Source of the DNA: Candidatus Spechtbacteria bacterium RIFCSPLOWO2_12_FULL_38_22
Lineage (GTDB): Bacteria > Patescibacteriota > Minisyncoccia > Spechtbacterales > 2-12-FULL-38-22
Direction of reading: 5' to 3'
Assembly: GCA_001820055.1 (NCBI GenBank)
Contig: MHOK01000005.1
Coordinates: 7,371-71,370 of the forward strand
DNA length: 64,000 bases
Position 1 is the stretch's first letter. The number at the start of each line of letters is the position of its first letter. Below, piece after piece: positions 5,458 through 50,394 of this stretch. The position numbers and the translations under genes are program-made. The notes under the pieces are model-generated. The model was not told where the DNA came from and did not search any database. It worked only from the letters and a program-made list of their open reading frames with translations.

Positions 5458-6870
5458 TTAACTTTTGAGTTTTTTAACACTTCCTTTTTTCTTTTTGATT
5501 TTAGTTCCTGTTTTGCTTTTTTTATTTTCTCCCACTAAATCTTCGTCAGTCTTTTCTACTGAAGCTTCGGCTTCTGCCTCAGCACCTAAATTTTTTGGGC
5601 TTTCAGCGGTTTCTGTTTTTTTAAAATTTTCGCTTACGACAGTTTCCCCTTCTTCTTCCACTCTCTGTTCTGCTTCTTCTGATGTTTCTTCAACCTCTCC
5701 TGTTTCTTTACTTACAATATCTATCTTCCAACCCGTAAGTTTAGCGGCTAGCCGAACATTCTGGCCCTCTTTGCCTATGGCAAGTGAAAGCTGGTCTTCA
5801 GCAACCGTAACCTCTGCTCTGTTTCTCCCTATTTTAGCGCTTAAAACTTTGGCCGGACTTAAAGAATTTGCGATAAATTCCTCTGAATCCTGTTTCCACT
5901 CAATAATATCTATTTTTTCTCCTCCTAATTCATGTATAACTGCCGTAACACGCGTACCGCGCTGCCCAACACAAGAACCAATCGGATCCACCCCGTCTTC
6001 GTTGCTCATAACTGCAATTTTGCTCCTGCTTCCTGCTTCTCTTGCCACCGCTTTTATCTCTACTGTCCCTGTTCCAATTTCTGGAACCTCTAATTCAAAT
6101 AAACGAGATAAAATTTTAGGGTGAGATCTAGATACAAAAATCTGAGGACCCCTTTGACCCTGTTCAAGCTCTGCCAAGTAAAGACGCATTCTTTGTCCAA
6201 TTCTGTATCTCTCACGAGGCATTCTGTCTTTTGCAAGCATGATGCCGGTTGTTTTACCTAGATCAAAAAATATAGTATTGCCCTCAATACGTTGCACTAC
6301 ACCACTGACAATACTATCTATTTTCTCTTCATACTCCTCAAATACCGCCTCCCTTTCTGCTTCACGAATTCTCTGTATTATTACCTGCTTGGCAGTTTGC
6401 GCGGCGATGCGTCCAAAATCTTCCCGGACATCAAGGTCAAAACGCAAAACATCCTCTGGCTGTGCCTTGGAATTAATTTTTTTTGCCTCATCAACCATTA
6501 TGTGTTTTTCTTCATTGAAACGCACCTTCTTTTGCATATCCTCATCGTCTTCCTCATTAATCTCCGGCAATTCTCCAGCCTCTCTTAAACGAGCTTCTTC
6601 TTCCAATTCTTCTTCGCTTTTTATCATATCTTCGTTCACCACTATTTTTTCTTGCCAAATATCAAATTTACCGGTTGCTGAATCCAGTTTTGCCTTAATT
6701 ATTTGGCCTCTTTGGCCATAGTCTTTTTTATAAGCGGCGGCGATTGCAAGCTCAACCGTTTCTAAGATTTTTTCACGGCTTATGCCTTTTTCCTCTTCAA
6801 TTTGACTTACCGCAGATATAAAATTTTTTAAATCAATCATATATGTTTTTACTAAAAAAGCTCGTTCCAT
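5458..6870 (-). CDS. nusA: Transcription termination/antitermination factor NusA
   Basis: 470 aa. NusA N-terminal domain, S1 domain and two KH domains (IGKEGQNVRLAAKLTGWKIDI). Lys-rich acidic/basic C-terminal tail. Confidence 0.9.
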   Translation of the reverse strand: MERAFLVKTYMIDLKNFISAVSQIEEEKGISREKILETVELAIAAAYKKDYGQRGQIIKAKLDSATGKFDIWQEKIVVNEDMIKSEEELEEEARLREAGELPEINEEDDEDMQKKVRFNEEKHIMVDEAKKINSKAQPEDVLRFDLDVREDFGRIAAQTAKQVIIQRIREAEREAVFEEYEEKIDSIVSGVVQRIEGNTIFFDLGKTTGIMLAKDRMPRERYRIGQRMRLYLAELEQGQRGPQIFVSRSHPKILSRLFELEVPEIGTGTVEIKAVAREAGSRSKIAVMSNEDGVDPIGSCVGQRGTRVTAVIHELGGEKIDIIEWKQDSEEFIANSLSPAKVLSAKIGRNRAEVTVAEDQLSLAIGKEGQNVRLAAKLTGWKIDIVSKETGEVEETSEEAEQRVEEEGETVVSENFKKTETAESPKNLGAEAEAEASVEKTDEDLVGENKKSKTGTKIKKKKGSVKKLKS

Positions 6871-6939
6871 GAACGAACTTCAGTTTATGTGTACAGTATA
6901 GCATAAATGAAATAAAATTACAATAGCAACTAAACGACT

Positions 6940-7120
6940 ATATAACAATATAACCAGATACAATATAACTATACAACAACATAACTACATAACCGCACAA
7001 TCAAACTACCACACAAGGGGTTTGGTAATCTGGTAATTTAGTAATCTGATGATTTAGTTATTTGGTTATTATAGTAATTTAGTTATCCTGCGATATAGTA
7101 ATCCGGCAATTTAGTAATGT
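6940..7120 (-). repeat. Upstream repeat module (family U), reverse orientation, 5' of nusA
   Basis: Contains GGTAATCTGGTAATTTAGTAATCTG, the reverse complement of CAGATTACTAAATTACCAGATT. Also TATAAC/GGTTAT-rich direct repeats homologous to 37601-37815 and 43635-43695. Confidence 0.5.
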
Positions 7121-7122
7121 GG

Positions 7123-7503
7123 TTATCTGACAGCATTTCTATAATATCTTAATCTTGCAACTTTGTTGGCGTTATTTATCTCCAGCGCCGCAAGGTCTAT
7201 TCTATAATCTGTGTCCTCTGGATAGTTGTTTTTTATTAAATATACCTGTGCGGTTTTTATAACTCTTTGAGCCTTTTTGTAATCAAAATGCTCTTCGGGT
7301 TTAAAATATTCTATGTACTTTGCGTCTAGCGCTTTTACTTCAACAAATACTACTGTGCGTTTATCTTTTGCAATAATATCTATCTCTCCAGTTTTGTATG
7401 AAAAATTTCTGTCAATAATTTTAAACTCTAAATCTTTTTTAAGATATTTAACTACCAAATCCTCTCCCAAGTTTCCAGTTTTTATATTATTGTGTTTAAC
7501 CAT
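7123..7503 (-). CDS. yraN: YraN/UPF0102 family endonuclease
   Basis: GEDLVVKYLKK...GEIDIIAKDKRTVVFVEVKA matches the UPF0102 (YraN) signature. Likely true start is the internal Met (MVKHNN). The ORF track extends to 7563. Confidence 0.6.
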   Translation of the reverse strand: MVKHNNIKTGNLGEDLVVKYLKKDLEFKIIDRNFSYKTGEIDIIAKDKRTVVFVEVKALDAKYIEYFKPEEHFDYKKAQRVIKTAQVYLIKNNYPEDTDYRIDLAALEINNANKVARLRYYRNAVR

Positions 7504-35966: not shown

Positions 35967-35978
35967 TATACGTCTTTA

Positions 35979-36006
35979 TGTCGTCCTGTCAGGACGACAT
36001 TTTTGT
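35979..36006 (+). terminator. Intrinsic terminator
   Basis: Perfect hairpin ATGTCGTCC-TGTCA-GGACGACAT followed by TTTTT. Confidence 0.6.
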
Positions 36007-36079
36007 AAAACAGTCTTTATTCAATGTCGTTTACTTGACGCACAACATAAGTACATACAAGAAAATAAAACAAAAACAA

Positions 36080-36190
36080 AAGAGTCTGTATAATTTTATT
36101 TCGTCGTAAGTGGGAATGAGCGTAGCGAATGGCAGCGTGAAATAAAATTATACAGACTCTTTTGTTAATAAACTGTACTGTTTTTTATTT
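36080..36190. repeat. Inverted-repeat hairpin element, family A copy 4 (lacks the inner palindrome module)
   Basis: AGAGTCTGTATAATTTTATTTCGTCGTAAG-TGGGAATGAGCGTAGCGAATGGCAGCGTGAAATAAAATTATACAGACTCT plus the AATAAACTGTACTGTTTTTTATTTTTAC tail. Confidence 0.6.
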
Positions 36191-36205
36191 TTACTATTTT
36201 TAAGT

Positions 36206-37363: not shown

Positions 37364-37600
37364 TTTATTGACAGACGAAGATGTGGTTTTTAATTTCTCG
37401 ATAATATATTTCTATAGCTTAAGGGTTGAATAAATACACCATTCAGCTACAATCTAAGAGTATTTAATATATAATCTGCGTAATCAAAAATGCTGCTTTC
37501 GCAGCACTCCTATAGTATTCAGCATAGCAGTTACACCCTATTTGTCAATAGGTCTAGGTGGAAAAAGTGTTAATATCGCATAGTGACTGTATTACTATAT

Positions 37601-37815
37601 TACTAGATTACAAAATTACTAAATTACCAGATTACAGAAACGCCGGATTACTAGATTACAAAATTACTAAATTACCAGATTATTTACATGACCCTGCGGT
37701 TGTACGGTTATATAGTCATCTTATTATGTAGTTATATAGCCGTCTTGTTACATGGTTATATGGTTATGTAGTTATTGTTATATAGTTATATAGTCATCTT
37801 GTTATTAGTTATCTT
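37601..37815 (+). repeat. Upstream repeat module (family U), 5' of pcrA
   Basis: Two tandem copies of ATTACTAGATTACAAAATTACTAAATTACCAGATTA, followed by TTATATAGTCATCTTRTTAT direct repeats. Confidence 0.5.
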
Positions 37816-37820
37816 ATTGT

Positions 37821-39734
37821 ATGGATATTTTAAAAAATTTAAACGAAAAACAAAAGCAGGCAGTTAGTATAACTGATGGCCCACTTTTGATTTTGGCGGG
37901 GCCGGGAAGCGGAAAAACACGAACCCTTACACACAAAATTGTTTATTTAATTCTCAAACAAGTAAGCCCTCATAATATACTTGCCGTAACTTTTACAAAC
38001 AAGGCCGCTTCCGAAATGAAAAACCGCGTATCGGGCCTGCTTTCTGGGCCAAATGTTAAAAATCAAATGTCCAGTGTGTCGTCGGCCATGCCGACGATCG
38101 GGACCTTTCACTCCATATGCGTAAAAATTTTACGAACAGAAGCTAAAAACTTGGGTTATAACTCAAGTTTCACTATATATGACAACCAAGATCAGTTAAG
38201 TTTAATAAAAAATATAATGAAAAGCTTTGAAATGGACACTGAACAACTTCCCCCGTCTCGCGTGGCTTCTTTTATAAATGACGCAAAAGATAATTTAGTG
38301 TCGCAGTCAGAATTTCAACTAACGGCGTATAATACAGCCACGGAAAAGACATCAAAAGTGTACAGCGAATATCAAAAAAGGCTGAAAAACATAAATGCTT
38401 TTGATTTTGGCGATCTTATTACGCAGGTTGTGTTCTTGTTTCGAGAAAATAAAAACATTCTAGAAAAATACCAAAATCGTTTTCACTATATTTTGGTGGA
38501 TGAATACCAAGACACAAATACCGCCCAGTACACCTGGTTGAAACTGCTTGCGCAAAAAAACAACAACATCTGTGTAGTAGGGGATGATGCTCAAGCAATA
38601 TATGGTTGGCGCAACGCTAATTTTAGAAATATCTTAAACTTTCAAAAAGATTGGCCTGACGCTGAAATTATAAAATTAGAACAAAATTACAGATCAACCC
38701 AAAACATAGTGCTCGGTGCCTCAAATCTTATTAAAACCAACACTCTTGGCTATCCAAAAAAACTATGGACCGAAAATACTATCGGAGATCCTATATTCAT
38801 ATGCGAACTGGGAAACGAATATGAAGAGAGTGAGTTTATAATAAGCCAAATAGAACGGCTCACTGAACAAAAGCAGTACCAACTTAAAGATTTTGTTGTT
38901 TTATATAGAACAAATGCCCAATCTCGCCCGATAGAACAAATGTTCTTGAAATATGATATACCCTACAAAATAGTTGGCGGGTTAAAATTTTATCAAAGAC
39001 AAGAAGTAAAAGATGTTATTGCTTGGCTGCGCTTGTTACAAAATCCTTACGATGAAGCATCTGTTCAGAGACTCGAGCGATTAAAATTAAAGGATCTGCT
39101 AAAAAATACTCAAAACGAAGCACGGACAAAAAAGCAGGCGATTGGTGTACTGCTTAAAAAAATTAAAGACTGTGCTGGAGAAAACCCCAGTTTAGGTAAA
39201 TTGTTAAAATATGTAATTGAAATATCAAATTTTGAAATTATGTTGCGCGACAGCACAGAGAAGGGGGAGGAAAAATGGCAAAACGTACAAGAACTCTTAT
39301 CCGTCGCCCAAGACTACGGACAAATAAACGTACGGGAAGCCATAGATACCTTCCTAGAAAACGTAACTTTGGCGCAAGAAGCAGATAATATAGAATACAG
39401 CTCACAACTGGTGCACCTAATGACTCTTCATATGGCAAAGGGGTTAGAATTTCCAGTGGTTTTTATTGCAGGATGCGAAGATGGTCTTTTACCTCACTCA
39501 AGTAGCATGACCAGCGTAGAAGAATTAGAAGAAGAGCGTCGTCTTGCATATGTCGGGGTAACGCGAGCAAAAGACAGGGTTTATATGTTATTTGCGCGCC
39601 AACGGATGTTATGGGGAAATATTCAATCTAACCCTCCTAGCAGTTTTCTACATGAACTACCGCAAGAAAATATACAATTTAAACCCCTTTATGAAGAATT
39701 GGAAACAGAAGAAGATATCATAGAAATAGATTAG
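37821..39734 (+). CDS. pcrA: ATP-dependent DNA helicase, UvrD/PcrA family
   Basis: Walker A AGPGSGKTRTL. Helicase motifs II (DEYQDTN) to VI. 637 aa, shorter than typical. Confidence 0.85.
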   Translation: MDILKNLNEKQKQAVSITDGPLLILAGPGSGKTRTLTHKIVYLILKQVSPHNILAVTFTNKAASEMKNRVSGLLSGPNVKNQMSSVSSAMPTIGTFHSICVKILRTEAKNLGYNSSFTIYDNQDQLSLIKNIMKSFEMDTEQLPPSRVASFINDAKDNLVSQSEFQLTAYNTATEKTSKVYSEYQKRLKNINAFDFGDLITQVVFLFRENKNILEKYQNRFHYILVDEYQDTNTAQYTWLKLLAQKNNNICVVGDDAQAIYGWRNANFRNILNFQKDWPDAEIIKLEQNYRSTQNIVLGASNLIKTNTLGYPKKLWTENTIGDPIFICELGNEYEESEFIISQIERLTEQKQYQLKDFVVLYRTNAQSRPIEQMFLKYDIPYKIVGGLKFYQRQEVKDVIAWLRLLQNPYDEASVQRLERLKLKDLLKNTQNEARTKKQAIGVLLKKIKDCAGENPSLGKLLKYVIEISNFEIMLRDSTEKGEEKWQNVQELLSVAQDYGQINVREAIDTFLENVTLAQEADNIEYSSQLVHLMTLHMAKGLEFPVVFIAGCEDGLLPHSSSMTSVEELEEERRLAYVGVTRAKDRVYMLFARQRMLWGNIQSNPPSSFLHELPQENIQFKPLYEELETEEDIIEID

Positions 39735-39769
39735 ATGCTAACTAAATAACATATTACTAAATAACGAAG

Positions 39770-40582
39770 ATGGTGCAAAATATAAAAAACTTATTAGAAA
39801 AATACAATGTAACACCGAACAAAGTGCTGGGGCAAAATTTTTTAATAAACGAAGGTGTCGCAGATGAGCTTATCAAAGCGACGTGCTTAACAAAAGATGA
39901 TACTGTGGTTGAGGTCGGGCCGGGAACGGGTGTCATCACGAAAAAATTAGCGCAGATTGCAAAAAAAGTAATAGCTGTGGAAAAAGACCCTAAACTTATC
40001 CCAATTCTCCAAAAAGAACTAAAAACTTTTCTTAATATTGAAATTATAAACGAGGACATTCTTAAATTCAATCCCGCAAACTACTCACTACAAACTACCT
40101 GCCTACCGGACAGGCAGGCTCACTACTCACTACTTGGCGCCCCTCCCTATTATCTGACCGGACGCCTGTTTCGTCACTTTTTAGAACTCTCTCTTATTCG
40201 ACCGACACAAATCTCCCTTATTATACAGAAAAATGTCGCTCAAAGAATTATTGCAAAACCACCAAAATCTAATATCCTAGCAACATCTATTCAATTTTAT
40301 GGAGAACCAAGTATTATCAATATAATTTCTAAAAACTCTTTTTGGCCCCGACCCAAAGTTGATTCTGCTATTTTGGTGATTAAAGATATAAAAAATCCTA
40401 CCACAAATGAGCAAAACTTTTTTAAAATTGTGCGCGCTGGCTTTTCTTCACCAAGAAAACAGCTCAAATCAAACCTAAAACAACAATTTAAACTAGATAC
40501 GGCGTTGGAAATAGACTTTTCGCGCAGAGCAGAAACACTCACCATAAAAGAATGGGCATACTTAACAGAAAAACTGCGCTAG
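39770..40582 (+). CDS. rsmA: 16S rRNA (adenine1518/1519-N6)-dimethyltransferase
   Basis: VLGQNFLINEGV ... VVEVGPGTGVITKKL SAM-binding motif. Degenerate NLPYNIS region (APPYYLTG). Contains a 42-bp palindrome-bearing insertion at 40080-40133. Confidence 0.85.
   Translation: MVQNIKNLLEKYNVTPNKVLGQNFLINEGVADELIKATCLTKDDTVVEVGPGTGVITKKLAQIAKKVIAVEKDPKLIPILQKELKTFLNIEIINEDILKFNPANYSLQTTCLPDRQAHYSLLGAPPYYLTGRLFRHFLELSLIRPTQISLIIQKNVAQRIIAKPPKSNILATSIQFYGEPSIINIISKNSFWPRPKVDSAILVIKDIKNPTTNEQNFFKIVRAGFSSPRKQLKSNLKQQFKLDTALEIDFSRRAETLTIKEWAYLTEKLR
40080..40133 (+). repeat. Palindromic mini-element with 12-bp flanking direct repeats inside the rsmA reading frame
   Basis: ACTACTCACTAC-AAACTA-CCTGCCTACCGGACAGGCAGG-CTC-ACTACTCACTAC. 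The palindrome matches the inner module of family A repeats (CCTGCCTACCGCAGGCAGGC). Confidence 0.5.
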
Positions 40583-40591
40583 CGCAGTTTT

Positions 40592-43021
40592 TTGTTAGGG
40601 GAAAACTTCTTGAGCAAACGTGCTCTTCTATTGTATAATAAATCTATAACTAGTATGGATTTTTATAGAAAACTCCGCAAATTTTTTATTACAAAAAATC
40701 TGCATATGTCGCAGAGTATTCTTAGTATTTCGCTGTCCATAAGATACTCAAAATACTTCCTCACAGCTATCGTTTTTGTAGTATTTGGGGGATTTTTCTT
40801 TTCAGCGCAACCAACAGACGCGTTCGGATTTTTAGCGTGGTTCGGTGTTGGTTTATTAGCGGATATACTTACTGGTGGACACGTCTTAAGTGCCGTAGCA
40901 GCACCCTTCTTCGAAGCCTTAATGAAGATATTGACCGAATTTATATTTCCAATTGTTGAAGCTGTCATAACCTCAATATTATCCTTCATAAACTTCTTAC
41001 TCACTGGAATTGTATATGTGGCAAAAACCATAATGGAGTTTGCTTTAAACTTTTCCCTTACCGCTCCTTACACAGACACAAGCCAAGGAGTTATAAAAGC
41101 CGCATGGCCGATATTTAGAGATTTGGCAAATATGGGACTTATTCTAGTACTAGTAGCTATCGGCATCGGGACAATACTTAACCTAAAGACAAACCGCAAC
41201 CAATTGATGCCCTTTATTATAATCGCGTTTCTAATTAACTTTACTCCGATGCTTACGGGCATCGTTATAGATTTAAGTAACTTAACCGCACGTATCTTTT
41301 TTGACGCGGCGCAAAATGCCTCAAACGCGTTTCTAGCTGGGAATCCATTTTCAGGTTCAATGGACAGACTTGGGGGAAGCATACCACTAATAGGTAGAGG
41401 AATATCAGGAGATGCGTTCGGAGCAACAGATTTTTCTGGCATCTCAATTTTTGCCATAATGACTACCATATTTTTACTTGTCCTAATTTTTGCGTACTTA
41501 CTGCTAGGCGCGCTATTTTTGGGTAGAACTTTGGCGCTTTGGTTGCTTGTTATATTTTCTCCTATAGCGTTTGTGGCTTATATACTTCCCTCGACCAGAA
41601 AAGTTTTTGATAACTGGTGGAACAACTTTTTAAAATGGTCCCTCATCGCAATACCCCTTATATTCTCTTTGTGGCTAGCGGGTATATTTTTACATAACAC
41701 AAGTGTTGGTTGTCAGGCGATATCTCAAAGTGCGATAGAACAAAATATTGGCGAAAACTTAGAGGAAAACGACGGAACAATAACAGGAGAGTCGTCGTTA
41801 GCAGGAGATGACTACGCAACCATACTTTATCCTGTAACCGCCGCGCAAACCAATACCGGCACAAATATGATTTGCGGAATTACATCTATGATATTTGCTC
41901 TTGGGACGCTATTTGTTGGCATATCTATGAGCTTAAAAAGTTCTGCCACAGGGGCGAACATTATAATATCGCGCGCTAAAAAACTGAAAGATGCGATGAT
42001 GAAAAAAGCTTCAAAGTGGGCAGGCACTGAAGCTGAAAAAAGGGGAAGACAACTTACGGCAAGACCGCTTTCAAAAGCGGGGCAGGGCTTGGCAGATTCT
42101 CGCCTTGGGCGCAGCGCTCTAGGGTCACCACTTCGCAACCTCGGGCTTGCGATGCAACGCCCTGCTGTAAAATGGGCTCAACAATATAAAGAGCACGAAA
42201 AGAAATTCCAAGGCATGAGCTGGGAACAAATGAAAGGAATGTTGTTTGAACGCACAGACAAAGGGTCTGCTGCGTGGGCATACGCCGCTAAAAACCACGC
42301 CGGAGATTTAAGAAAAACCTTAGATGATCCAAAAACTGGAGGTGGCCTAAGAAAAGTTATGAAAGCAAAGATGAAAAAAGCTAATTTACGAGGCGATGAC
42401 TCTATGAAAGAGGTAGAAAAAATTGATCCAAAAACCGCAGCAGAAACAAAACATGCCGGTATCAGTGATGAAGGAAAACGACTAGATGCTATAAAAAATG
42501 AAATACATAAGATAGTAGAAAAGCTAGATGACAAAGCGGTCGCAAACCTATCTAATTCGTCTCTGGGAGATACTAGAGTTGTAAAAGCGCTAGAGGAACA
42601 AGGCAAGTTAACTAAGGGTGCCATTGAAAATCTGGCAAAAGAAGAAACACGACTTGCAACGCTGGACACCATTCTGCAAGAAAACTACAAAAAAGAATTG
42701 GTCAAAGAATTAAAGAAAATGACATCAGAAGAAAGAATAAAAACATTTGGATCAGTTGGATCACTTATAGCGAGAGGGGGGGATTTATCACCCGAAGCAT
42801 ACAAAAAATTCCTATCAAGTCCTGAAAACTATAAAAAAATGTTGCGATACAAAAAGGATAAAAGTGGGGGGCGTGTTAGCCCGTACTTGGAAACCATAGA
42901 GGCTCACCCTTATGCGGCGGCGTTTCACTTCACAACCAAAGAATCTGTCCGGGAAGGACTAACAAAAAAAGATTTCGAGACTTTTAGAAAAGAAATGACC
43001 TCAAAGGAAGATAAAAAATAA
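40592..43021 (+). CDS. VirB6/TrbL-like polytopic membrane protein with long hydrophilic C-terminal domain
   Basis: ~8-10 TM helices in the first ~400 aa. Charged Lys/Ala-rich ~400-aa C-terminal extension. Position at the head of the VirB3/VirB4 cluster. True start may be 40655 or 40706. Confidence 0.45.
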   Translation: MLGENFLSKRALLLYNKSITSMDFYRKLRKFFITKNLHMSQSILSISLSIRYSKYFLTAIVFVVFGGFFFSAQPTDAFGFLAWFGVGLLADILTGGHVLSAVAAPFFEALMKILTEFIFPIVEAVITSILSFINFLLTGIVYVAKTIMEFALNFSLTAPYTDTSQGVIKAAWPIFRDLANMGLILVLVAIGIGTILNLKTNRNQLMPFIIIAFLINFTPMLTGIVIDLSNLTARIFFDAAQNASNAFLAGNPFSGSMDRLGGSIPLIGRGISGDAFGATDFSGISIFAIMTTIFLLVLIFAYLLLGALFLGRTLALWLLVIFSPIAFVAYILPSTRKVFDNWWNNFLKWSLIAIPLIFSLWLAGIFLHNTSVGCQAISQSAIEQNIGENLEENDGTITGESSLAGDDYATILYPVTAAQTNTGTNMICGITSMIFALGTLFVGISMSLKSSATGANIIISRAKKLKDAMMKKASKWAGTEAEKRGRQLTARPLSKAGQGLADSRLGRSALGSPLRNLGLAMQRPAVKWAQQYKEHEKKFQGMSWEQMKGMLFERTDKGSAAWAYAAKNHAGDLRKTLDDPKTGGGLRKVMKAKMKKANLRGDDSMKEVEKIDPKTAAETKHAGISDEGKRLDAIKNEIHKIVEKLDDKAVANLSNSSLGDTRVVKALEEQGKLTKGAIENLAKEETRLATLDTILQENYKKELVKELKKMTSEERIKTFGSVGSLIARGGDLSPEAYKKFLSSPENYKKMLRYKKDKSGGRVSPYLETIEAHPYAAAFHFTTKESVREGLTKKDFETFRKEMTSKEDKK

Positions 43022-43035
43022 CAAACACAAACATT

Positions 43036-43611
43036 ATGTTGGATATTGCCCTTAATAACTACGTACAAGCATTTGATACAACTCCGCAGAAGATAAAGGA
43101 TGTGCTTTTTGCCGACTTTACATCATCGGCAATAAAAAACATTACTCACCGACATAACGCGCAAAATAACATGCTGGATATATCTGCAACCATTGGTTAT
43201 GTACTAGTTGGCCTTATTCCCGTAAAAAACATTATTGAAGTTTTAAAATTAGAAGCGCAACTTGATCAAAACACAGCTCGCAATATAGCCTATGACATAC
43301 GCGAACAGATATTCGCGCCCATAGCTCAAGAACTTGCTTCAATACAAGCGCAAGCGCAAAACAGTTGGGGACAAATCAACGTACTTCAACCGCAAACAAT
43401 GCTTACTGTAGCTCCTGTTTTAGACGAATCAATCACAAGAGAAAAACTACAAATGATTCCTCCTGCGTTACAAGACCATCCTGCCCTAGAACTCCCCACA
43501 AAAGTAGCGCCCGCCCCGCCTCAAAACTTGCCAACAGAACCAAAAGCAATAGACAATATTCCGCCCGACAATCGAATAGATTTAAGAGACAAAAGAGATA
43601 CAAGGTTTTAA
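43036..43611 (+). CDS. Hypothetical soluble protein in the T4SS-like cluster
   Basis: 191 aa. No TM. Gln/Pro-rich C-terminus. Confidence 0.3.
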   Translation: MLDIALNNYVQAFDTTPQKIKDVLFADFTSSAIKNITHRHNAQNNMLDISATIGYVLVGLIPVKNIIEVLKLEAQLDQNTARNIAYDIREQIFAPIAQELASIQAQAQNSWGQINVLQPQTMLTVAPVLDESITREKLQMIPPALQDHPALELPTKVAPAPPQNLPTEPKAIDNIPPDNRIDLRDKRDTRF

Positions 43612-43634
43612 CGCCTACTGATAAACCCGTACAC

Positions 43635-43695
43635 TATTACTAGATTGCAGAAGTACCAAATTACTAGATTACAAAATTACTAAATTACCAGATTT
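43635..43695 (+). repeat. Upstream repeat module (family U), 5' of the VirB3-like gene
   Basis: ATTACTAGATTGCAGAAGTACCAAATTACTAGATTACAAAATTACTAAATTACCAGATTTG. Confidence 0.5.
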
Positions 43696-43717
43696 GTTAT
43701 CTTGTTATTTAATTATA

Positions 43718-44119
43718 ATGCAATATTCAACTCCACAATTTATAGACAGGGAACAAAAGCTGCTGGGGCCACTAACTGTACACCAAACAGTTATTCTTGG
43801 TTTAACTACTGTGTTTTTGGTAATATCCTATTTTATATTTAATTTCTTTTTGTTTAGCGTGTTACTCGTAATTCTTGGAGGCACGAGTATCTCAATATCT
43901 TTTATTAAAATAAACGACAGACCAGTATACCAGTTTGTAACTTCTTTTTTTGGATATTTTTTAAAACCCCGCATATACATATGGCAAGGAGAATCTCAAA
44001 ATCCTGTTGCGCAACCTCAAACCACGCAAAAGACACAACAAGAAACTGAGCCTCAAAAGAGATCTCCCCAAATTACAAAAAAAGAACTAGAAGAACTGAC
44101 AGAATTTCTTAACAAATAA
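43718..44119 (+). CDS. VirB3-like small membrane protein
   Basis: Two adjacent TM helices near the N-terminus. Immediately upstream of VirB4. The ORF track starts at TTG 43694. Confidence 0.3.
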   Translation: MQYSTPQFIDREQKLLGPLTVHQTVILGLTTVFLVISYFIFNFFLFSVLLVILGGTSISISFIKINDRPVYQFVTSFFGYFLKPRIYIWQGESQNPVAQPQTTQKTQQETEPQKRSPQITKKELEELTEFLNK

Positions 44120-44120
44120 T

Positions 44121-44771
44121 ATGGCACAACCCTCAACTCAACAATTTATACCGATAGATAATATAAGAGATGATGTGGTTATTTTAAAAGGCGGGCAAAT
44201 GCGCGCTGTTTTACAAGTATCCAGCATAAACTTGGCCCTAAAATCGCAAGACGAACAGGACGCAATAATTCAAAGTTACGGAGCGTTTCTTAATTCTCTA
44301 GAATTCCCGATACAGATACTCGCAAATTCCCGCTATATGAACCTAGACGAATATCTTAAAAACCTCAACGACATGATAGAGAAACAGCCATCCGAACTGA
44401 TGCAGATACAAACCCAAGAATATATAAATTTTATACAAGAATTCTTGTCACAAGACTATGTAGTATCTACAAACTTTTACGTTACGGTGCCCTTCAGTCT
44501 GGTTGATATAGATATTCAAAAGGGCGGTGCGCAAGAAAGATTTAAAGCCTTACTTGGAAAACAAAGCGAACTATCCTATATAGACCCCAAAGAATTTGTA
44601 TCTTACAGGAACCAACTAGTGCAGAGGGTTGAATTTATAGCAAGCGGTTTGCACAGAATGGGACTTGTTATAGATATGCTAAACACCGAACAGTTAATAT
44701 CCTTGTTTTGGAGCTTGTACAATCCCGAGGACTTAAAAAAAAGGTCTTTAGTAAAATCATTATTTGAATAA
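44121..44771 (+). CDS. VirB4/TrbE-family protein, N-terminal domain encoded as a separate ORF
   Basis: IPIDNIRDDVVILKGGQMRAVLQVSSINLALKSQDEQDAI... resembles the VirB4 N-terminal domain. Stop TAA overlaps the next ORF's start (TAATATG). Confidence 0.55.
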   Translation: MAQPSTQQFIPIDNIRDDVVILKGGQMRAVLQVSSINLALKSQDEQDAIIQSYGAFLNSLEFPIQILANSRYMNLDEYLKNLNDMIEKQPSELMQIQTQEYINFIQEFLSQDYVVSTNFYVTVPFSLVDIDIQKGGAQERFKALLGKQSELSYIDPKEFVSYRNQLVQRVEFIASGLHRMGLVIDMLNTEQLISLFWSLYNPEDLKKRSLVKSLFE

Positions 44772-46542
44772 TATGAAGCAGCTTGACGCACAACAAATCA
44801 ACCAGAAAGAACTTGAGCAAGAAAAAAAAAGGCGTTTAATAAATGTCCTGGCACCTCCGGTGGTAGAAATTGAAGCAGATTTTATAAAATTAGGTGGAGT
44901 ATTTGTTCGTACATTATTTATATCAAGTTACCCTAGATTTCTTTCACAAAACTGGATCAGTCCAATTATAAATTTGGACGAAACTGTTGATGTGTCCATA
45001 TTTATACAACCGATACCAACAGAATCTGTGCTTAAAAAACTGGAAAGCCAACTGACCGGCGTGGAAGCAGATATGATGGAGCGAGAAAAAAAGGGGCTGA
45101 TTCGCGACCCATTGCTTGAAGCGGCGTATACAAATATAGAAGATTTGAGAGATAAAATGCAAACCTCAGAAGAGAGGGTATTTAAGTTTGGGTTATATTT
45201 AATGCTTTACGGAAAAACAAAAGAAGCGCTTGAAGATGTTGAAAATAAAATTAAATCCCTACTGGAAAGTAGATTGATATACGCAAAACCCGTTGTATAC
45301 AAACAAGAACAGGGAATCGTGGGTGGACTACCTCTGGGTATAGACAACCTTAAATTAAACACGAGCCTAAACACATCATCGCTTTCTGCGTCTTTCCCTT
45401 TTGTTTCTTTTGACTTATCGGACAACAAGGGCATTCTTTATGGAATTAACCGACACAATTCAAGCCTAATACTATTTGACCGTTTCTCCTTAGAAAACGC
45501 AAATACTGTGGTTTTAGGAAAAAGTGGGGGGGGTAAAAGTTATGCTGTAAAATTAGAGATTCTGCGCTCTTTAATGCTTGGCATAGACAATATTGTAATA
45601 GATCCAGAAAATGAGTATAAATATCTTGCGGAAGCGACAGGAGGCAGTTTTTTTCATATATCGCTTACAAGCGGGGACCATATAAACCCTTTTGATATAC
45701 CCCAACCCCAACCAGACGATAAACCTCAAGAGGTTTATCGGGCTAATGTAATAACCTTAATGGGACTACTCAAACTTATGCTGGGCTCTATGACCCCAGA
45801 AGAAGAAAGCGTTTTAAATGAAGCAATAGACCAAACTTATGCCTCATACGATATTACAGCGGACACAGAGAGTTTCTGGAAAAAATCTCCACCCCTAATG
45901 AGAGACCTCCAGGCCGTGCTAGAAAGCATGCAAGGGGGAGAAGCGCTTGGACAACGGTTAGAAAAATATACGAAAGGCATCTATTCAGGATTTTTAAACG
46001 AAAGAACAAACGTAGAGCTAAACGACCAGCTGGTTGTTTTAAGCATAAGGGATATGGAAGAGGAACTGCGCCCAATAGCCATGTATATAATAATTGACTA
46101 TATCTGGGGAGCTATACGGCGGGAGCTTAAAAAAAGAATTTTAACAATAGACGAGGCTTGGTGGATGCTACAACAAAAAGAAAGTGCCTCGTTTTTGTTT
46201 GGAATTGCAAAACGAGCTCGTAAATACTTTTTGGGGTTAACAACTATCTCCCAAGATATAGCAGATTTTTTAAGCAGTGACTACGGCCGCGCTATTATTG
46301 CAAATTCTTCACTTCAAATTTTAATGAAGCAGTCTCCAACCACAATAGACCAAGTGCAAGAAGTATTTAATTTGACAGATGAAGAAAAACTACTGTTACT
46401 GGAGGACAATGTGGGCGAGGGTTTGTTTTTTGCGGGAACCAAGCATGTCGCCATAAAAATAATGTCCTCCTACATAGAAGACCAAATAATAACATCCGAC
46501 CCAGAGCAACTGCTTGAAATAAAAAGAATGAAAGAAAATTAA
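44764..46542 (+). CDS. VirB4/TrbE-family T4SS ATPase, C-terminal ATPase domain
   Basis: Walker A VVLGKSGGGKSY. DPENEY motif. Walker B ILTIDEAWWML. Probable ATG start at 44773. Confidence 0.85.
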   Translation: MNNMKQLDAQQINQKELEQEKKRRLINVLAPPVVEIEADFIKLGGVFVRTLFISSYPRFLSQNWISPIINLDETVDVSIFIQPIPTESVLKKLESQLTGVEADMMEREKKGLIRDPLLEAAYTNIEDLRDKMQTSEERVFKFGLYLMLYGKTKEALEDVENKIKSLLESRLIYAKPVVYKQEQGIVGGLPLGIDNLKLNTSLNTSSLSASFPFVSFDLSDNKGILYGINRHNSSLILFDRFSLENANTVVLGKSGGGKSYAVKLEILRSLMLGIDNIVIDPENEYKYLAEATGGSFFHISLTSGDHINPFDIPQPQPDDKPQEVYRANVITLMGLLKLMLGSMTPEEESVLNEAIDQTYASYDITADTESFWKKSPPLMRDLQAVLESMQGGEALGQRLEKYTKGIYSGFLNERTNVELNDQLVVLSIRDMEEELRPIAMYIIIDYIWGAIRRELKKRILTIDEAWWMLQQKESASFLFGIAKRARKYFLGLTTISQDIADFLSSDYGRAIIANSSLQILMKQSPTTIDQVQEVFNLTDEEKLLLLEDNVGEGLFFAGTKHVAIKIMSSYIEDQIITSDPEQLLEIKRMKEN

Positions 46543-46543
46543 T

Positions 46544-46897
46544 ATGGCTTTGCTCCACAAGAAATTAAAAAAGCGTATAGAAAAAGAATCTGTGTGGGGA
46601 GATAACTTCTTAATATTATTCTGGGCTATATTTATAGACATTATAGGATTTATTTCCGGATTATTGGGATTTCTTATTGTTCCTATAATATTTTCTAACA
46701 TTCTAAGTTCCATAGCCGGTATTCCTATTTTTGTTTGGGGTTATAAAAAATATAAAAAACGCGGAGGCTTTGGTGTTTGGAAATACATAAAACAAGTCTG
46801 GAGGACATCTCTAGCAGAAACGCTTGTAAGCCCGGGACCATGGTTAACTTTATTCGTAAGAAAAACAATACGAGGTAAAAAAATATTTAAATTCTAA
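46544..46897 (+). CDS. Small membrane protein in the T4SS-like cluster
   Basis: 117 aa. Basic N-terminus and 2-3 TM helices. Confidence 0.35.
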   Translation: MALLHKKLKKRIEKESVWGDNFLILFWAIFIDIIGFISGLLGFLIVPIIFSNILSSIAGIPIFVWGYKKYKKRGGFGVWKYIKQVWRTSLAETLVSPGPWLTLFVRKTIRGKKIFKF

Positions 46898-46898
46898 A

Positions 46899-48122
46899 AT
46901 GCTAAACTTCACAAAAAAGTCCACAAGCATTCTTGCGCTCTTCATACTAGTTTTTGGCGGTTGGGGTATAAACGCAAACACGCATGACACACGAGAAGCT
47001 GATATAATATATACTCCGCCATCCGAAGCAACTACCACAGCGGGAGAACCCATAGAACTGGGACCTATAAAATGCAACGTTAACTGGCCACGAATTCCTA
47101 TTCCGGGCGGAACTTTTGACCTAAACGAGTACTGCCAACCGGGCGCTTCAATAAGTATCGGCACCGTGATTGCCGCAATATATGCAACAGCACTCTGGCT
47201 TGGCGGTTTAATCGCATTTGGCGCTTTGTTTTATTCAGGGTTTTTATATATATTTTCTGGAAATGTTCCGGCAAATCGGTCTAAAGCGCGGGGTATGCTA
47301 GTTAATGTAGCATGGGGCATGGGAATACTACTACTTTCCTGGGTAACGCTCAGGTTGATAAATCCAGATATAACTAACCTAAAATTCCAAGAACCTCAAA
47401 AAACTAGAGTATGTCTGGACGCCAATCAGATAAACTGCATACCGGTGCCGGGTTTTATAGGAAGAGTCTCCTATAGCCCATACAATGCCGGAGATCCCTT
47501 GGAATCGGCTAGATGTATCGGGACAGGAGATGTGCGAGTGGGAGACTCCACTCTAAACAGTCTGGCAAATATTATGTGTGAAAGCGAAGAACTACTTAGA
47601 AAAGACGCCCATTCTTACCTAATACAGGCTGTCGGAAATTCAAATTGTTCTCAAGAGGATGTGGATGCGCTGTTGTTAAAAACAGAAACACTATGTCCTG
47701 CGAACCAGCCCGGAGATGAAGCGCTGGGAATAACCGGGGACACTGTGTCAACTGGTTTATGCTACTGGCAAGGACAATACGGTGGGGGAGCAGGAATATC
47801 TTTTGGAGCAAGCGGAGCTGTATATTTTCCGAATGACTATCTAGGCGATGCAGCTGATGATTTTTTGGAAATTGCTAACCTAGACATAATTGATGCTACG
47901 TCTCCCAGTGCCGAATTCGTTAATGCTATTCAAAAAAACCTTGACGCTGTTTTTGACTATTGTTCAAACGAAGATTCTAACCCCAACATCTGCATACTAC
48001 TGGACGAAGACGAATCCAACATCGCTGACCTAAACCCAGCACGAAGGGAGGCGCTACGTTGTTTCTGCACCAGGGACATATTACCATCCAAGTGGAACCC
48101 ATCTTTCCCTGAATGCAACTAA
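46899..48122 (+). CDS. Exported protein: VirB2/TrbC-like two-helix module fused to a Cys-rich ectodomain
   Basis: Signal peptide. Residues ~67-165 read IPGGTFDLNEYC...GGLIAFGALFYSGFLYIFSGNVPANRSKARGMLVNVAWGMGILLLSWVTLRLINPD, paralogous to the 23820 and 48132 proteins. C-terminal ~240 aa has 14 Cys. Confidence 0.45.
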   Translation: MLNFTKKSTSILALFILVFGGWGINANTHDTREADIIYTPPSEATTTAGEPIELGPIKCNVNWPRIPIPGGTFDLNEYCQPGASISIGTVIAAIYATALWLGGLIAFGALFYSGFLYIFSGNVPANRSKARGMLVNVAWGMGILLLSWVTLRLINPDITNLKFQEPQKTRVCLDANQINCIPVPGFIGRVSYSPYNAGDPLESARCIGTGDVRVGDSTLNSLANIMCESEELLRKDAHSYLIQAVGNSNCSQEDVDALLLKTETLCPANQPGDEALGITGDTVSTGLCYWQGQYGGGAGISFGASGAVYFPNDYLGDAADDFLEIANLDIIDATSPSAEFVNAIQKNLDAVFDYCSNEDSNPNICILLDEDESNIADLNPARREALRCFCTRDILPSKWNPSFPECN

Positions 48123-48131
48123 ACACCCTTT

Positions 48132-49715: not shown

Positions 49716-49740
49716 TTGTTTATTATTAACATAAAAGTAA

Positions 49741-50394
49741 ATGAAGCATAATCTGAAAACTTTATTAGCCTTTGGCGGCTTACTGCTGGGTTTAACTTTG
49801 ATATTTGTATTTATAAATAGGTTATGGGATGTACAAGATCCAGAAACTTTTGTAATAAAGAGAACAGACCAAACAACAACGCAATGGGATAGAATTTTAC
49901 AACAAAAAGACACAGAGAACGCAAAGATTATAACTAATGTATACGACGGCTACGAAATAACAATTCCAAAAAATTGGCTAGCTCCCCAAAAAAGTCCCTC
50001 TGCCCTACGTCTATATTCATACGAACAGCTACAATACCGTACAGAAAAAAATCTATTAGAAAATATAGAAAAATGGCCCCCACTAGAACACGAGATGCCG
50101 ATATTCAGTATAGATATCTTAGAAAAAATAGAAAAAACCCCTCTAGATGTTTGGCTAAACACCTCGCCCTTTGTAACAAACGTCCTCCCTGGTGAATTAA
50201 TTTTTAAAAAAATAAAAATAAACACTTTGGAAGCCTTGAAAGCTATACAACAAACATATGAAGAAGACGGTAGCCTAGGACTTATGCAAAGTGTCTTTGT
50301 TGTGTCTGGTAAGAATAGAGTTTACATCTTAACCTGCGCCGACGACTTACAAAAATGTGAAAACGCGATAAAAACCTTTAAAATCCTCGAATAA
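49741..50394 (+). CDS. Bitopic membrane protein, possibly VirB8-like
   Basis: 217 aa. N-terminal TM plus ~190-aa extracytoplasmic domain, the VirB8/PrgL topology and size. No motif-level support. Confidence 0.25.
   Translation: MKHNLKTLLAFGGLLLGLTLIFVFINRLWDVQDPETFVIKRTDQTTTQWDRILQQKDTENAKIITNVYDGYEITIPKNWLAPQKSPSALRLYSYEQLQYRTEKNLLENIEKWPPLEHEMPIFSIDILEKIEKTPLDVWLNTSPFVTNVLPGELIFKKIKINTLEALKAIQQTYEEDGSLGLMQSVFVVSGKNRVYILTCADDLQKCENAIKTFKILE

What the first reader, a model, noticed from the sequence alone, without database searches (positions are those of the whole stretch)
37601..37815. 35-bp module ATTACTAGATTACAAAATTACTAAATTACCAGATT repeated upstream of nusA, pcrA and the T4SS-like genes in a consistent orientation
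The module occurs twice in tandem upstream of pcrA. It occurs once (extended) immediately upstream of the VirB3-like/VirB4 genes at 43635-43695. It occurs in reverse complement at 7024-7048, which is again upstream and in the same relative orientation to the minus-strand nusA. The nusA and pcrA upstream regions also share TATAAC/GGTTAT-rich direct repeats (6940-7010 vs 37700-37815), so each carries a homologous ~200-bp 5' block. This may be a transcription-factor binding array or a mobile promoter module.
Basis: seen in the sequence. Interest (0 to 1): 0.5.

Follow-up and report, generated by a model that had tools for sequence, protein, structure and literature searches.

The report
Dispersed 8-bp repeat block upstream of genes
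The repeated 35-base module is real: it is the best-kept part of a roughly 230-base block of 8-base tandem repeats that one small-genome groundwater bacterium has copied, always in the same direction, in front of three unrelated genes. It resembles poorly understood "short repeats before start codons" seen in a few other bacteria, and its function is not shown.

Summary
Observation confirmed. The exact 35-mer occurs three times: twice upstream of pcrA and once upstream of a PrgI-like T4SS gene. A diverged copy lies upstream of nusA. All have ATTAC on the sense strand of the gene downstream.

The 35-mer is part of a composite block of about 230 bp:
- an A-array, (ATTAC-NNN)n in strict 8-bp register;
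- a short GC-richer junction;
- a B-array, (RGTTAT-NN)n.

The host is a Candidatus Spechtbacterales (Patescibacteria) genome. The pcrA block is a ~236-bp insertion between the ancestral promoter region and the ATG, and three relatives lack it. The nusA block is older, because relatives keep arrays of the same type and orientation there. Such arrays are exclusively intergenic.

The ATTAC core is conserved while the 3-nt spacer varies (p=7e-6), which suggests a repeated recognition site. Specific A:B pairing, Rfam families and copy-number variation between assemblies were all tested and not found.

My best reading (about 0.4) is a dispersed, recombining repeat cassette transcribed as 5' leader or intercistronic RNA, offering many AUUAC sites to a single-strand-binding protein. 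Rivals are a DNA operator or portable promoter, and selfish or neutral repeats. The closest precedents are TAACTGA repeats, STRR/LSSR and "putative mobile promoters". Interest is moderate.

The parts
37591..37686 (+). A-array upstream of pcrA. Twelve 8-bp units in strict register: ATTACTAT, ATTACTAG, ATTACAAA, ATTACTAA, ATTACCAG, ATTACAGA, AACGCCGG, then ATTACTAG...ATTATTTA. It contains the two exact 35-mers (37599-37633, 37647-37681). The sense strand is G-poor (8% G).
37687..37706 (+). GC-richer junction between the A and B arrays (TACATGACCCTGCGGTTGTAC). It is homologous to the nusA junction. A weak predicted promoter, ATGACC-17-TATAGT, spans 37688-37716.
37707..37820 (+). B-array upstream of pcrA. 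About 14 units of RGTTAT-NN type with a 24-bp higher order. It is T-rich and C-poor (8% C) and runs right up to the pcrA ATG at 37821.
   Evidence: (D4)
37584..37818 (+). Extent of the whole A+junction+B block, seen as an insertion of about 236 bp. The flanks GTGTTAATATCGCATAG and TATGGATATTTT are contiguous in the relative L121.
   Evidence: (alignment A2)
37568..37576 (+). TGTTAATAT, an extended -10-like element conserved with relatives. In relatives it lies 8-13 nt before the pcrA ATG; here the block displaces it about 245 nt upstream.
   Evidence: read from the sequence, function inferred
43636..43699 (+). A-array upstream of the PrgI-like gene. Eight units in register, including the exact 35-mer at 43660-43694. 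It is intercistronic, with no terminator or promoter predicted nearby.
   Evidence: (D1)
43695..43718 (+). Short B-like stretch (TTGTTATCTTGTTATTTAATTATA) between the A-array and the probable true PrgI start (ATG 43719). It resembles the last 24 nt before the pcrA ATG.
   Evidence: the homologue in L121 starts MQ...
7021..7134 (-). A-array upstream of nusA. Thirteen diverged units (ATTAC, ATAAC, ATTGC, ATCGC cores; one 9-nt unit). It begins at the stop codon of the upstream UPF0102/YraN gene.
   Evidence: (D3, I1-I11)
6919..7008 (-). B-array upstream of nusA (GGTTATGTAGTTATG...GGTTATATTGTTATATAGTCG), collinear with the pcrA B-array.
6895..6923 (-). Predicted nusA promoter TTGTAA-17-TATACT with TG. 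Its -35 overlaps the end of the B-array. It is orthologous to the promoter found upstream of the arrays in L186 and L187.
6854..6878 (-). Leader hairpin GTTCGTTC-ATG-GAACGAGC followed by TTTTTT, between the promoter and the probable nusA start (6840). It looks like an attenuator or terminator, and relatives keep an equivalent element.
39741..39765 (+). Short related array in the 35-nt pcrA|ksgA spacer (TAACTAAATAACATATTACTAAATAAC). It is in sense orientation and ends 4 nt before the ksgA ATG.

Best explanation
**What it is (largely shown).** It is a lineage-specific dispersed repeat cassette of a Spechtbacterales genome, about 230 bp long, built from two 8-bp-periodic arrays:
- A, ATTAC plus a variable 3-nt spacer;
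- B, RGTTAT-NN, which is roughly the reverse complement of the ATAAC variant of A.

It changes length, apparently by slippage or duplication. It is copied or homogenised between intergenic sites; the route is inferred to be ectopic recombination or gene conversion. It always has the ATTAC strand as the sense strand of the gene downstream.

**How it most likely works (inferred).**
- The block is transcribed as part of the 5' leader or intercistronic RNA of genes that lack a Shine-Dalgarno sequence.
- The G-poor, unstructured A-array then offers 8-13 phased AUUAC sites.
- These sites would form a multivalent platform for a single-strand RNA-binding protein. Candidates are ribosomal protein S1, or a KH, S1 or Csp-type protein.
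- That binding would affect ribosome loading or mRNA stability. This is the role proposed for TAACTGA repeats, and it is formally like TRAP binding to spaced triplets.
For: **Anatomy and statistics**
- The pcrA and nusA blocks are collinear over about 220 bp.
- The ATTAC core shows 17/125 mismatches against 32/75 in the spacer, Fisher p=7e-6. This argues for constraint on a repeated 5-nt site.

**Copying between sites**
- The 35-mer is perfect in three copies, while the adjacent 24 bp of the same pcrA/prgI homology has 7 mismatches.
- The block at pcrA is a 236-bp insertion relative to L121, and L123 and L125 also lack it.

**Persistence**
- Relatives with 82%, 78% and 73% NusA identity keep arrays of the same kind and orientation just upstream of nusA.
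- Examples are ATTACTAA x2 followed by GGTTATATAGTTAT; a TTACGAAAG-type array; and (TATCTAC)5.

**Consistent with being transcribed in sense**
- In L186, L187 and L188 the arrays lie downstream of the promoter and leader terminator.
- The prgI and ksgA arrays are intercistronic, with no terminator predicted before them.
- The pcrA block lies downstream of the conserved -10-like element.
- The nusA array in the window starts at the yraN stop codon, with no terminator in between.
- Orientation follows the gene, not the replichore: the nusA array is on the - strand and the pcrA and prgI arrays are on the + strand, all on the same side of oriC.

**Location and context**
- 14 of 14 arrays with WTWAC cores (ATTAC, ATAAC and the like; at least 3 units) in about 190 kb of Spechtbacterales DNA are intergenic. 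The window is 91% coding.
- Only 6 of 60 genes have an SD-like motif.
- The same core appears with 7-, 8- and 9-nt spacing within the clade. A flexible single strand tolerates this better than a cooperative duplex-DNA binder would.
- The A-array sense strand has 8-10% G, and the folding z-scores are weak, -1.1 and -1.9.
Against: - There are no transcript data, so "transcribed leader" is inference.
- In the window's own nusA copy the arrays lie upstream of the only strong predicted promoter, which suits a DNA-level role.
- Predicted promoter-like hexamers lie inside or at the edge of B in L186 and at pcrA.
- No binding protein has been identified.
- The orientation sample is small: 3 independent loci here and about 10 of 13 in the clade, with some antisense cases. 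Examples are the L121 virB4 spacer and the inverted pairs flanking genes in L186 and around 20016-20390.
- Intergenic restriction is expected for any repeat with a period that is not a multiple of 3.
- The recent pcrA copy could be a neutral insertion that is merely tolerated.
Confidence: 0.4

Rival explanations
1. Portable promoter/operator cassette acting on DNA. The A-array would be an upstream operator for a protein that polymerises on 8-bp sub-sites, in the way ribbon-helix-helix proteins do (MetJ met-boxes, ParG tetramer boxes, omega heptads). The B-array would supply -35 and -10-like hexamers (TTGTTA, TATAGT, TGGTTATAT), so the block brings transcription with it.
For: - The A-array keeps a strict 8-bp register with a conserved core over 96 bp.
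- At nusA the block ends in the -35 of TTGTAA-17-TGcTATACT.
- In L186 a TTGTTA-16-TATAGT site lies inside B.
- At pcrA a weak site spans the A/B junction.
- Many genes here look leaderless, with TAnnnT at -12..-7 in 9 of 60 genes against a 3.8% background. Promoters therefore sit right at start codons, where B lies.
- In a Saccharibacteria locus (L035) an ATTAC array sits about 45 nt upstream of a TGTTATAAT-N6-ATG promoter-like site.
- In a Clostridium contig (L076) ATTAC and GTAAT arrays precede a ParA-like gene, MKIISICNQKGGCGKTT..., identified by eye only.
- The pcrA/prgI pair meets the mobile-promoter criteria (PMC3488235).
Against: - Promoter-like sites are not enriched over shuffles: 5 against 3.3, 2 against 2.7, and 0 against 0.6.
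- They fall at a different position in each copy, and none is predicted at prgI.
- In L186, L187 and L188 the conserved promoter and terminator lie upstream of the arrays.
- The same core occurs at 7-, 8- and 9-nt spacing, which a cooperative duplex binder should not tolerate.
- No RHH or other candidate regulator was seen among about 60 window proteins.
- The pcrA copy is absent in relatives, so there is no conserved regulon.
Confidence: 0.25
2. Neutral or selfish repeat. On this view the arrays are slippage-generated tandem repeats in AT-rich spacer DNA, spread by illegitimate recombination or gene conversion. They would be tolerated wherever they do not break a gene and would have no function of their own.
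For: - The pcrA copy is an insertion absent from three relatives.
- Identical 35-mers at two loci point to recent copying.
- Many other 7-8-nt arrays with unrelated units fill spacers in this genome and its relatives.
- Octamer arrays with a control core are as common as ATTAC arrays in viral contigs: 68 against 61 loci.
- Intergenic restriction is expected for repeats with a period that is not a multiple of 3.
Against: - A conserved core with a variable spacer (p=7e-6) is not what whole-unit slippage or homogenisation predicts.
- Arrays of the same type and orientation persist upstream of nusA across genomes diverged to 73-82% NusA identity. Other spacer sequence between these genomes aligns only in short blocks.
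- A 236-bp non-functional insert between the promoter and ATG of pcrA, in a 91%-coding streamlined genome, should be costly.
- No copy-number differences were seen between independent assemblies.
Confidence: 0.28
3. Structural RNA or DNA hairpin. On this view the A and B arms pair to form a long imperfect stem that acts as an RNase III site, terminator, stabiliser or cruciform. This is what the GTAAT...ATTAC inverted pairs in Acidobacteriota appear to be able to do.
For: - B units (GGTTAT, AGTTAT) are exact complements of the ATAACC and ATAACT variants of A.
- The minimum-energy folds pair A with B.
- Inverted array pairs exist in relatives and flank the IVP gene at 19975-20429 (I20).
Against: - The A:B duplex energy is no better than with a dinucleotide-shuffled B: z = -0.64, -0.33 and -0.23.
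- Whole-region fold z-scores are only -1.06 and -1.93.
- ATTAC against GTTAT leaves a central mismatch in every unit.
- The prgI copy has almost no B arm.
- There is no Rfam match.
Confidence: 0.05

Closest known systems
Intergenic TAACTGA heptamer direct repeats of marine Beggiatoaceae, some Cyanobacteria and Bacteroidetes (MacGregor 2015, PMC4679880)
   Same: - Short direct tandem repeats, not a multiple of 3, lying mostly in forward orientation within a few nucleotides of start codons.
- They replace a recognisable Shine-Dalgarno sequence.
- They sit in front of unrelated and partly essential genes, including translation and transcription genes.
- Their phylogenetic distribution is patchy and their function is unknown, with an RNA-binding protein (S1, Csp, CsrA) proposed.
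   Different: - The unit here is 8 nt with a 5-nt conserved core and a variable spacer, not an invariant heptamer.
- Arrays are longer (8-13 units against 2-6).
- They come as a composite A+B block about 230 bp long that is itself a dispersed repeat.
- The host is a Patescibacterium.
Putative mobile promoters (Matus-Garcia, Nijveen & van Passel 2012, PMC3488235)
   Same: A homologous stretch of more than 50 nt with at least 80% identity lies upstream of non-homologous genes with non-homologous upstream neighbours. The pcrA/prgI pair meets this at 59 nt and 88%.
   Different: That class is defined only operationally. Promoter activity is not shown here, the block is internally a tandem repeat, and the nusA copy is below the 80% threshold (about 76%).
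Long simple sequence repeats (Mrazek 2007, as summarised in PMC4679880) and the STRR heptamers of heterocystous cyanobacteria (STRR from my own knowledge)
   Same: Tandem repeats with 5-11-nt units, longer than chance, concentrated in non-coding DNA, lineage-specific and of unknown function.
   Different: Those are mostly arrays of identical units. Here the units share a core but differ in the spacer, and the arrays form a defined two-part block copied between loci.
Arrays of protein-binding sub-sites: TRAP (G/U)AG triplets with 2-3-nt spacers on RNA; MetJ 8-bp met-boxes, ParG 4-bp boxes with 4-bp spacers, and omega 7-bp heptads on DNA (all from my own knowledge)
   Same: A conserved short core repeated many times at a fixed short interval with non-conserved spacers, close to the start of the controlled gene.
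   Different: No cognate protein is known or found here. The core sequence is unrelated. Location relative to the promoter and terminator is not constant. This is an analogy of mechanism, not membership.
MITEs and REP/REPIN elements
   Same: Small non-coding dispersed repeats confined to intergenic DNA, with presence/absence differences between relatives. The genome also carries an IS200-like Y1 transposase flanked by palindromes (22025-22750).
   Different: There are no clean terminal inverted repeats and no target-site duplication. The arms do not pair better than chance, and the internal structure is tandem rather than palindromic.

Membership tests
Putative mobile promoter (PMC3488235) | Upstream regions align over more than 50 nt at 80% identity or more | tested here: met
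   pcrA against prgI: 59 nt at 88% and a 64-nt copy at 86% (D1). pcrA against nusA reaches only about 76% over 62 nt (I1).
Putative mobile promoter (PMC3488235) | The downstream and upstream coding sequences are not homologous | tested here: met
   The downstream genes are NusA, a UvrD/PcrA helicase and a PrgI-like protein. The upstream genes are UPF0102, a LysM/M23 peptidase and an unknown 191-aa protein.
Putative mobile promoter (PMC3488235) | The block actually carries promoter activity | not testable with these tools
   Consensus scans give inconsistent, non-enriched sites. 5'-end mapping or a reporter is needed.
TAACTGA-type repeats (PMC4679880) | The repeat unit is TAACTGA | tested here: not met
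   The units are ATTAC-NNN and RGTTAT-NN.
TAACTGA-type repeats (PMC4679880) | Forward-oriented direct repeats immediately upstream of start codons that lack an SD | tested here: met
   All the window's ATTAC/TAAC arrays upstream of nusA, pcrA, ksgA and prgI are in sense orientation. The ksgA array ends 4 nt, the prgI A-array 24 nt and the pcrA B-array 0 nt before the ATG. No GGAG-type motif is present.
Phase-variable simple sequence repeat (contingency locus) | Identical units whose copy number differs between closely related genomes | tested here: not met
   Units differ in the spacer. Independent assemblies from other samples (L178 across pcrA, L184 across nusA) are 100% identical. The sample is only a few assemblies.
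Ribbon-helix-helix operator array (MetJ, ParG, omega type) | Tandem 7-8-bp sub-sites with a conserved core in strict register | tested here: met
   12 units in 8-bp register at pcrA and 8 at prgI. The core is conserved and the spacer is not.
Ribbon-helix-helix operator array (MetJ, ParG, omega type) | A cognate small DNA-binding protein encoded nearby, and a site overlapping the regulated promoter | tested here: not met
   No RHH domain was found among about 60 window proteins. Position relative to predicted promoters varies. A regulator elsewhere in the genome is not excluded.
MITE | Terminal inverted repeats and a target-site duplication | tested here: not met
   The A and B arms pair no better than shuffled controls. 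No direct repeat is seen at the insertion junctions in alignment A2.
MITE | Dispersed copies with presence/absence differences between relatives | tested here: met
   There are three loci in about 83 kb. The pcrA copy is absent in L121, L123 and L125.
RNA-binding-site array (TRAP or HutP type) | At least 6 conserved short cores with variable short spacers on the transcribed strand of a 5' leader | tested here: inconclusive
   The core/spacer pattern and sense orientation are met. Transcription of the arrays is inferred only from gene order and predicted promoters and terminators.
Known RNA family (Rfam 15) | Match to a covariance model | tested here: not met
   Only two tRNAs reach the gathering score in the window. 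Nothing meaningful appears at E<=5 in 37364-37860.

The most novel reading that the evidence does not exclude
ATTAC-octamer arrays may not be a private quirk of this genome. They could be one face of a widespread, undescribed class of intergenic "punctuation" elements.

The same core, period and variable spacer fill the spacers of high-GC Acidobacteriota and Chloroflexota genomes. There they form inverted GTAAT...ATTAC pairs, for example in every spacer from secE to rplL in L062. In Patescibacteria they occur as direct arrays. A conserved single-strand nucleic-acid-binding factor would read them to mark cistron boundaries, through processing, ribosome loading or insulation.
Probability: 0.1. 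Interest if true: 0.75.

Novelty: new variant of a known kind. Interest (0 to 1): 0.4.

Why it matters
Patescibacteria have tiny, tightly packed genomes, few regulators and mostly no Shine-Dalgarno sequences. How they start and tune expression is poorly known.

A 230-bp repeat cassette sits between the promoter region and start codon of housekeeping genes that are essential in model bacteria (nusA, pcrA). It is kept upstream of nusA across diverged relatives. That makes it either a cheap, copyable cis-regulatory device or a surprisingly well-tolerated genomic parasite.

If the ATTAC sites are read by a protein, this would be a tractable example of the unexplained "short repeats before start codons" phenomenon, with a clear binding motif to test. 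If not, it is a useful marker of how spacer DNA turns over in streamlined genomes.

Tried and rejected
- **A:B hairpin, RNase III site or terminator.** Duplex energies equal those of shuffled controls, and fold z-scores are weak.
- **Known RNA family.** There is no Rfam hit.
- **Plasmid or phage origin, or iterons.** BLAST of the block against PLSDB and INPHARED finds nothing, though the low-complexity filter was on.
- **Phase variation.** Other assemblies of the same genome are identical.
- **Orientation set by the replication strand.** The arrays are on opposite strands of the same replichore.
- **More copies nearby.** None were found in 19 kb of extra flank.
- **Literature search by repeat sequence.** No papers were found.
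- **Cross-phylum homology of ATTAC arrays.**
  - The search was seeded by the motif, and no control scan of genomes was possible.
  - In viral contigs a control core (CATTA x6, 68 loci) is as frequent as ATTAC x6 (61 loci).
  - I therefore do not claim relatedness.
- **Gene-orientation bias in those other phyla.** Solo arrays show none: 19 have the neighbouring gene reading away from the array and 21 have it reading towards the array.
- **Arm-to-arm spacer covariation in those other phyla.** It is weak: 2.01 against 1.87 +/- 0.06 pairs out of 3.
- **Link to the IS200-like transposase at 22025-22750.** IS608 targets TTAC, which I recall from memory. This was only a thought, and nothing was tested that supports it.

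Full report
**1. The observation**

The 35-mer ATTACTAGATTACAAAATTACTAAATTACCAGATT is present exactly three times, at 37599-37633, 37647-37681 and 43660-43694. None is expected by chance.

Its 19-nt core is present in reverse complement at 7027-7045.

A degenerate two-unit pattern gives 20 hits against 1.4 expected. Eighteen lie in the three upstream regions, one in the pcrA|ksgA spacer, and only one (mismatched) inside a gene.

Pfam confirms the genes:
- NusA, 5458-6870(-);
- a UvrD/PcrA helicase, 37821-39734(+);
- a weak PrgI-like protein, 43694/43719-44119(+);
- a VirB4/TraG-type ATPase further on.

**2. Anatomy**

The module is a stretch of an 8-bp tandem array. Upstream of pcrA, twelve units keep a strict register over 96 bp. 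The register holds even across one unit that has lost the core (AACGCCGG).

A second array of RGTTAT-NN units follows, with a 24-bp higher order. It runs to the ATG.

The nusA upstream region, read on the minus strand, has the same order: A-array, GC-richer junction, B-array. It aligns collinearly with the pcrA block over about 220 bp. The prgI copy has the A-array and only 24 nt of B-like sequence.

Base composition is skewed in opposite ways on the sense strand:

| Array | G | C |
|---|---|---|
| A | 8-10% | 16-20% |
| B | 17-23% | 4-8% |

B units are the complement of the ATAAC variants of A, so the two halves are loosely inverted. They do not pair specifically:
- A:B duplex energies equal those obtained with a shuffled B.
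- Whole-region fold z-scores are -1.1 and -1.9.

**3. Constraint and copying**

Across 25 non-redundant units the ATTAC core has 17/125 mismatches and the 3-nt spacer 32/75 (Fisher p=7e-6). Whole-unit slippage would not produce this pattern. It suggests a repeated 5-nt recognition site.

The pcrA and prgI copies share 59-64 bp. Within that stretch the 35-mer is perfect, while the adjacent 24 bp has 7 mismatches. This indicates either recent conversion of that tract or selection on it.

**4. Organism and relatives**

The PcrA and NusA homologues that carry source names are annotated Candidatus Spechtbacterales.

The same genome was assembled with 100% identity from other samples (L178, L184, L185). 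The arrays therefore show no copy-number variation, and the extra 19 kb holds no further ATTAC array.

*pcrA.* Gene order around pcrA is conserved in relatives. Their LysM|pcrA spacer is 157-221 bp against 457 bp here. Alignment A2 shows the whole block as a ~236-bp insertion between GTGTTAATATCGCATAG and TATGGATATTTT. In relatives a -10-like element sits 8-13 nt before the pcrA ATG.

*nusA.* Relatives do carry arrays at nusA, in the same orientation just before the start:
- L186 (NusA 82% identical) has ATTACTAA, ATTACTAA, ATAACTAA and so on, followed by TTGTTATATAGTAATATGGTTATATAGTTAT.
- L187 (78%) has TTACGAAAG-type units followed by their inverse.
- L188 (73%) has (TATCTAC)5 next to the ATG.

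In those three genomes a promoter plus hairpin-T-run lies upstream of the arrays, so the arrays are in the 5' UTR. In the window the order is reversed: arrays, then the orthologous TGCTATACT promoter and hairpin, then nusA.

*prgI.* The relative L121 also has A-like (AATAACCAA) and B-like (TTGGTTATTA) sequence upstream of prgI. It has an ATAAC/ATTAC array upstream of its TraC-like gene.

*Location.* All 14 arrays with WTWAC cores in about 190 kb of Spechtbacterales DNA are intergenic. The window is 91% coding.

**5. Context of expression**

Only 6 of 60 window genes have an SD-like motif. Nine have TAnnnT exactly at -12..-7, against a 3.8% background. Leaderless or near-leaderless mRNAs therefore seem common.

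Consensus promoter scans are not enriched in the array regions and place sites differently in each copy.

The cumulative GC-skew minimum and dnaA/dnaN place oriC near 54-56 kb. All three loci are on one replichore but on different strands, so orientation follows the gene.

**6. Interpretation**

The safest statement is that this is a lineage-specific dispersed repeat cassette built of short-period tandem arrays. It is old at nusA and recently copied to pcrA and prgI.

For function I favour, at about 0.4, an RNA-level role. The block is part of the leader or intercistronic RNA, and its G-poor A-array is a multivalent AUUAC platform for a single-strand-binding protein that influences ribosome loading or stability. 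The reasons are:
- sense orientation;
- intercistronic and 5'-UTR positions in most loci;
- adjacency to SD-less start codons;
- tolerance of 7-9-nt spacing within the clade;
- lack of RNA structure.

A DNA-level operator or portable promoter (about 0.25) is favoured by the window's nusA arrangement and by -35 and -10-like hexamers in B. A neutral or selfish repeat (about 0.28) is favoured by the pcrA insertion and by the abundance of other arrays. It is disfavoured by core conservation and by persistence at nusA. A hairpin role is disfavoured (about 0.05).

**7. Comparison with known things**

- The nearest described phenomenon is the TAACTGA heptamer repeats upstream of start codons in Beggiatoaceae, Cyanobacteria and Bacteroidetes, whose function is still unknown (PMC4679880).
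- Operationally the pcrA/prgI pair is a "putative mobile promoter" (PMC3488235).
- It also falls under long simple sequence repeats and STRR.
- It fails the tests for MITEs, phase-variable SSRs, REP elements and any Rfam family.
- RHH operator arrays and TRAP-type RNA sites are mechanistic analogies only.

**8. Wider occurrence (not claimed as related)**

Most are high-GC Acidobacteriota and Chloroflexota.

There the usual form is stop codon, (GTAATNNN)3-4, a 20-40-nt spacer, (ATTACNNN)4, then the start codon. In L062 one such pair lies between each pair of neighbouring genes from secE to rplL, and arrays also flank the tRNA just upstream.

In those loci nearly all period-8 arrays belong to this family. 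The GTAAT arm precedes the ATTAC arm about ten times more often than the reverse, and solo arrays show no gene-orientation bias. Spacer covariation between arms is weak. No Rfam family matches.

Because the search was seeded by the motif, and a control core is equally common in viral contigs, I treat this as a separate lead.

Noticed in passing
L062:350-3750 (Acidobacteriota MAG JBKPSP010000133) and about 90 other high-GC loci, L001-L120: Inverted pairs (GTAATNNN)3-4, then 20-40 nt, then (ATTACNNN)4 fill intergenic spacers. In L062 one pair lies between each pair of neighbouring genes from secE to rplL, and arrays also flank the tRNA just upstream. The GTAAT arm comes first about 10 times more often than the reverse. 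No Rfam family matches and no paper was found by sequence. This looks like an undescribed REP-like family.
   Followed up: partly
window:21928-22805: An IS200-like Y1 transposase gene (22025-22750, PF01797, E=3e-6) is flanked by four copies of the palindrome TTCCTGGGGGTTCAACCCCCAGGAA. The arrangement resembles a REP-associated tyrosine transposase (RAYT) with its REPs.
   Followed up: no
window:19975-20429: A 23S-rRNA-intervening-sequence-protein gene (20016-20390, PF05635) lies between cca and a cysteine desulfurase. It is bracketed by inverted heptamer arrays (TTACTTG/TTACTAG type, 74% complementary). A relative (L125) has such a gene inserted between its TraC-like and VirB4-like genes, which suggests a mobile cassette.
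   Followed up: partly
window:1665-1776, 15552-15899 (two copies), 35967-36205; also L185:2553-2782: A dispersed element of about 100 nt has a 28-bp perfect stem (AACAAAAGAGTCTGTATAATTTTATTTC...) around a conserved loop (GGGAATGAGCGTAGCGAATGGCAGCGTGAAATAAA). It sits downstream of genes. The fold z-score is -7.3 for 36060-36200. No match reached the Rfam gathering score in the whole-window scan.
   Followed up: partly
window:6854-6923 (-); L186:3670-3740; L187:3778-3865: A strong promoter (TGCTATACT type) is followed within about 40 nt by a hairpin and T-run upstream of nusA. It is conserved in relatives and may be a NusA autoregulatory attenuator. Its position relative to the repeat arrays is swapped between the window and its relatives.
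   Followed up: partly
window, all gene starts: Only 6 of 60 genes have an SD-like motif. Nine of 60 have TAnnnT exactly at -12..-7 from the start codon (background 3.8%), for example TATAAT-N6-ATG at 7527. This suggests that leaderless mRNAs are frequent in this organism.
   Followed up: partly
window:29947-30606: A 660-bp gene-free gap with GC-rich, structured-looking segments lies upstream of a dksA/traR zinc-finger gene. Relatives keep a non-coding gap of about 440-930 bp at the same place. There is no Rfam match at E<=1 and ARAGORN finds no tmRNA. It may hold an unrecognised structured RNA.
   Followed up: partly
window:53656-56736: The cluster rnpA-yidD-yidC-jag (-) next to dnaA-dnaN (+), together with the cumulative GC-skew minimum at about 54-56 kb, indicates that the window contains the replication origin. 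The 13-kb pcrA-to-T4SS cluster (37821-50394, + strand) would then be transcribed head-on to replication.
   Followed up: no
L121:11912-12080, 16482-16605, 17254-17340; L125:12833-12867, 15417-15566, 17185-17233: Relatives carry other 7-8-nt arrays in spacers of the same gene cluster. A ~35-nt module, AAGCTAAAAAGCTAYAAGCTAAGAACCTAAAACCY-ATG, is shared upstream of two T4SS genes in L121, and a related AAGCTAW array lies upstream of virB4 in L125.
   Followed up: no
L076:4150-4300 (Clostridium sp. C2-6-12 contig): (ATTACTWT)4 followed by inverted GTAAT units lies immediately upstream of a gene beginning MKIISICNQKGGCGKTT..., which looks like a ParA/Soj-type ATPase (not scanned). It resembles a plasmid partition centromere/operator and shows that the same core and period can serve as a DNA-binding array elsewhere.
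   Followed up: no
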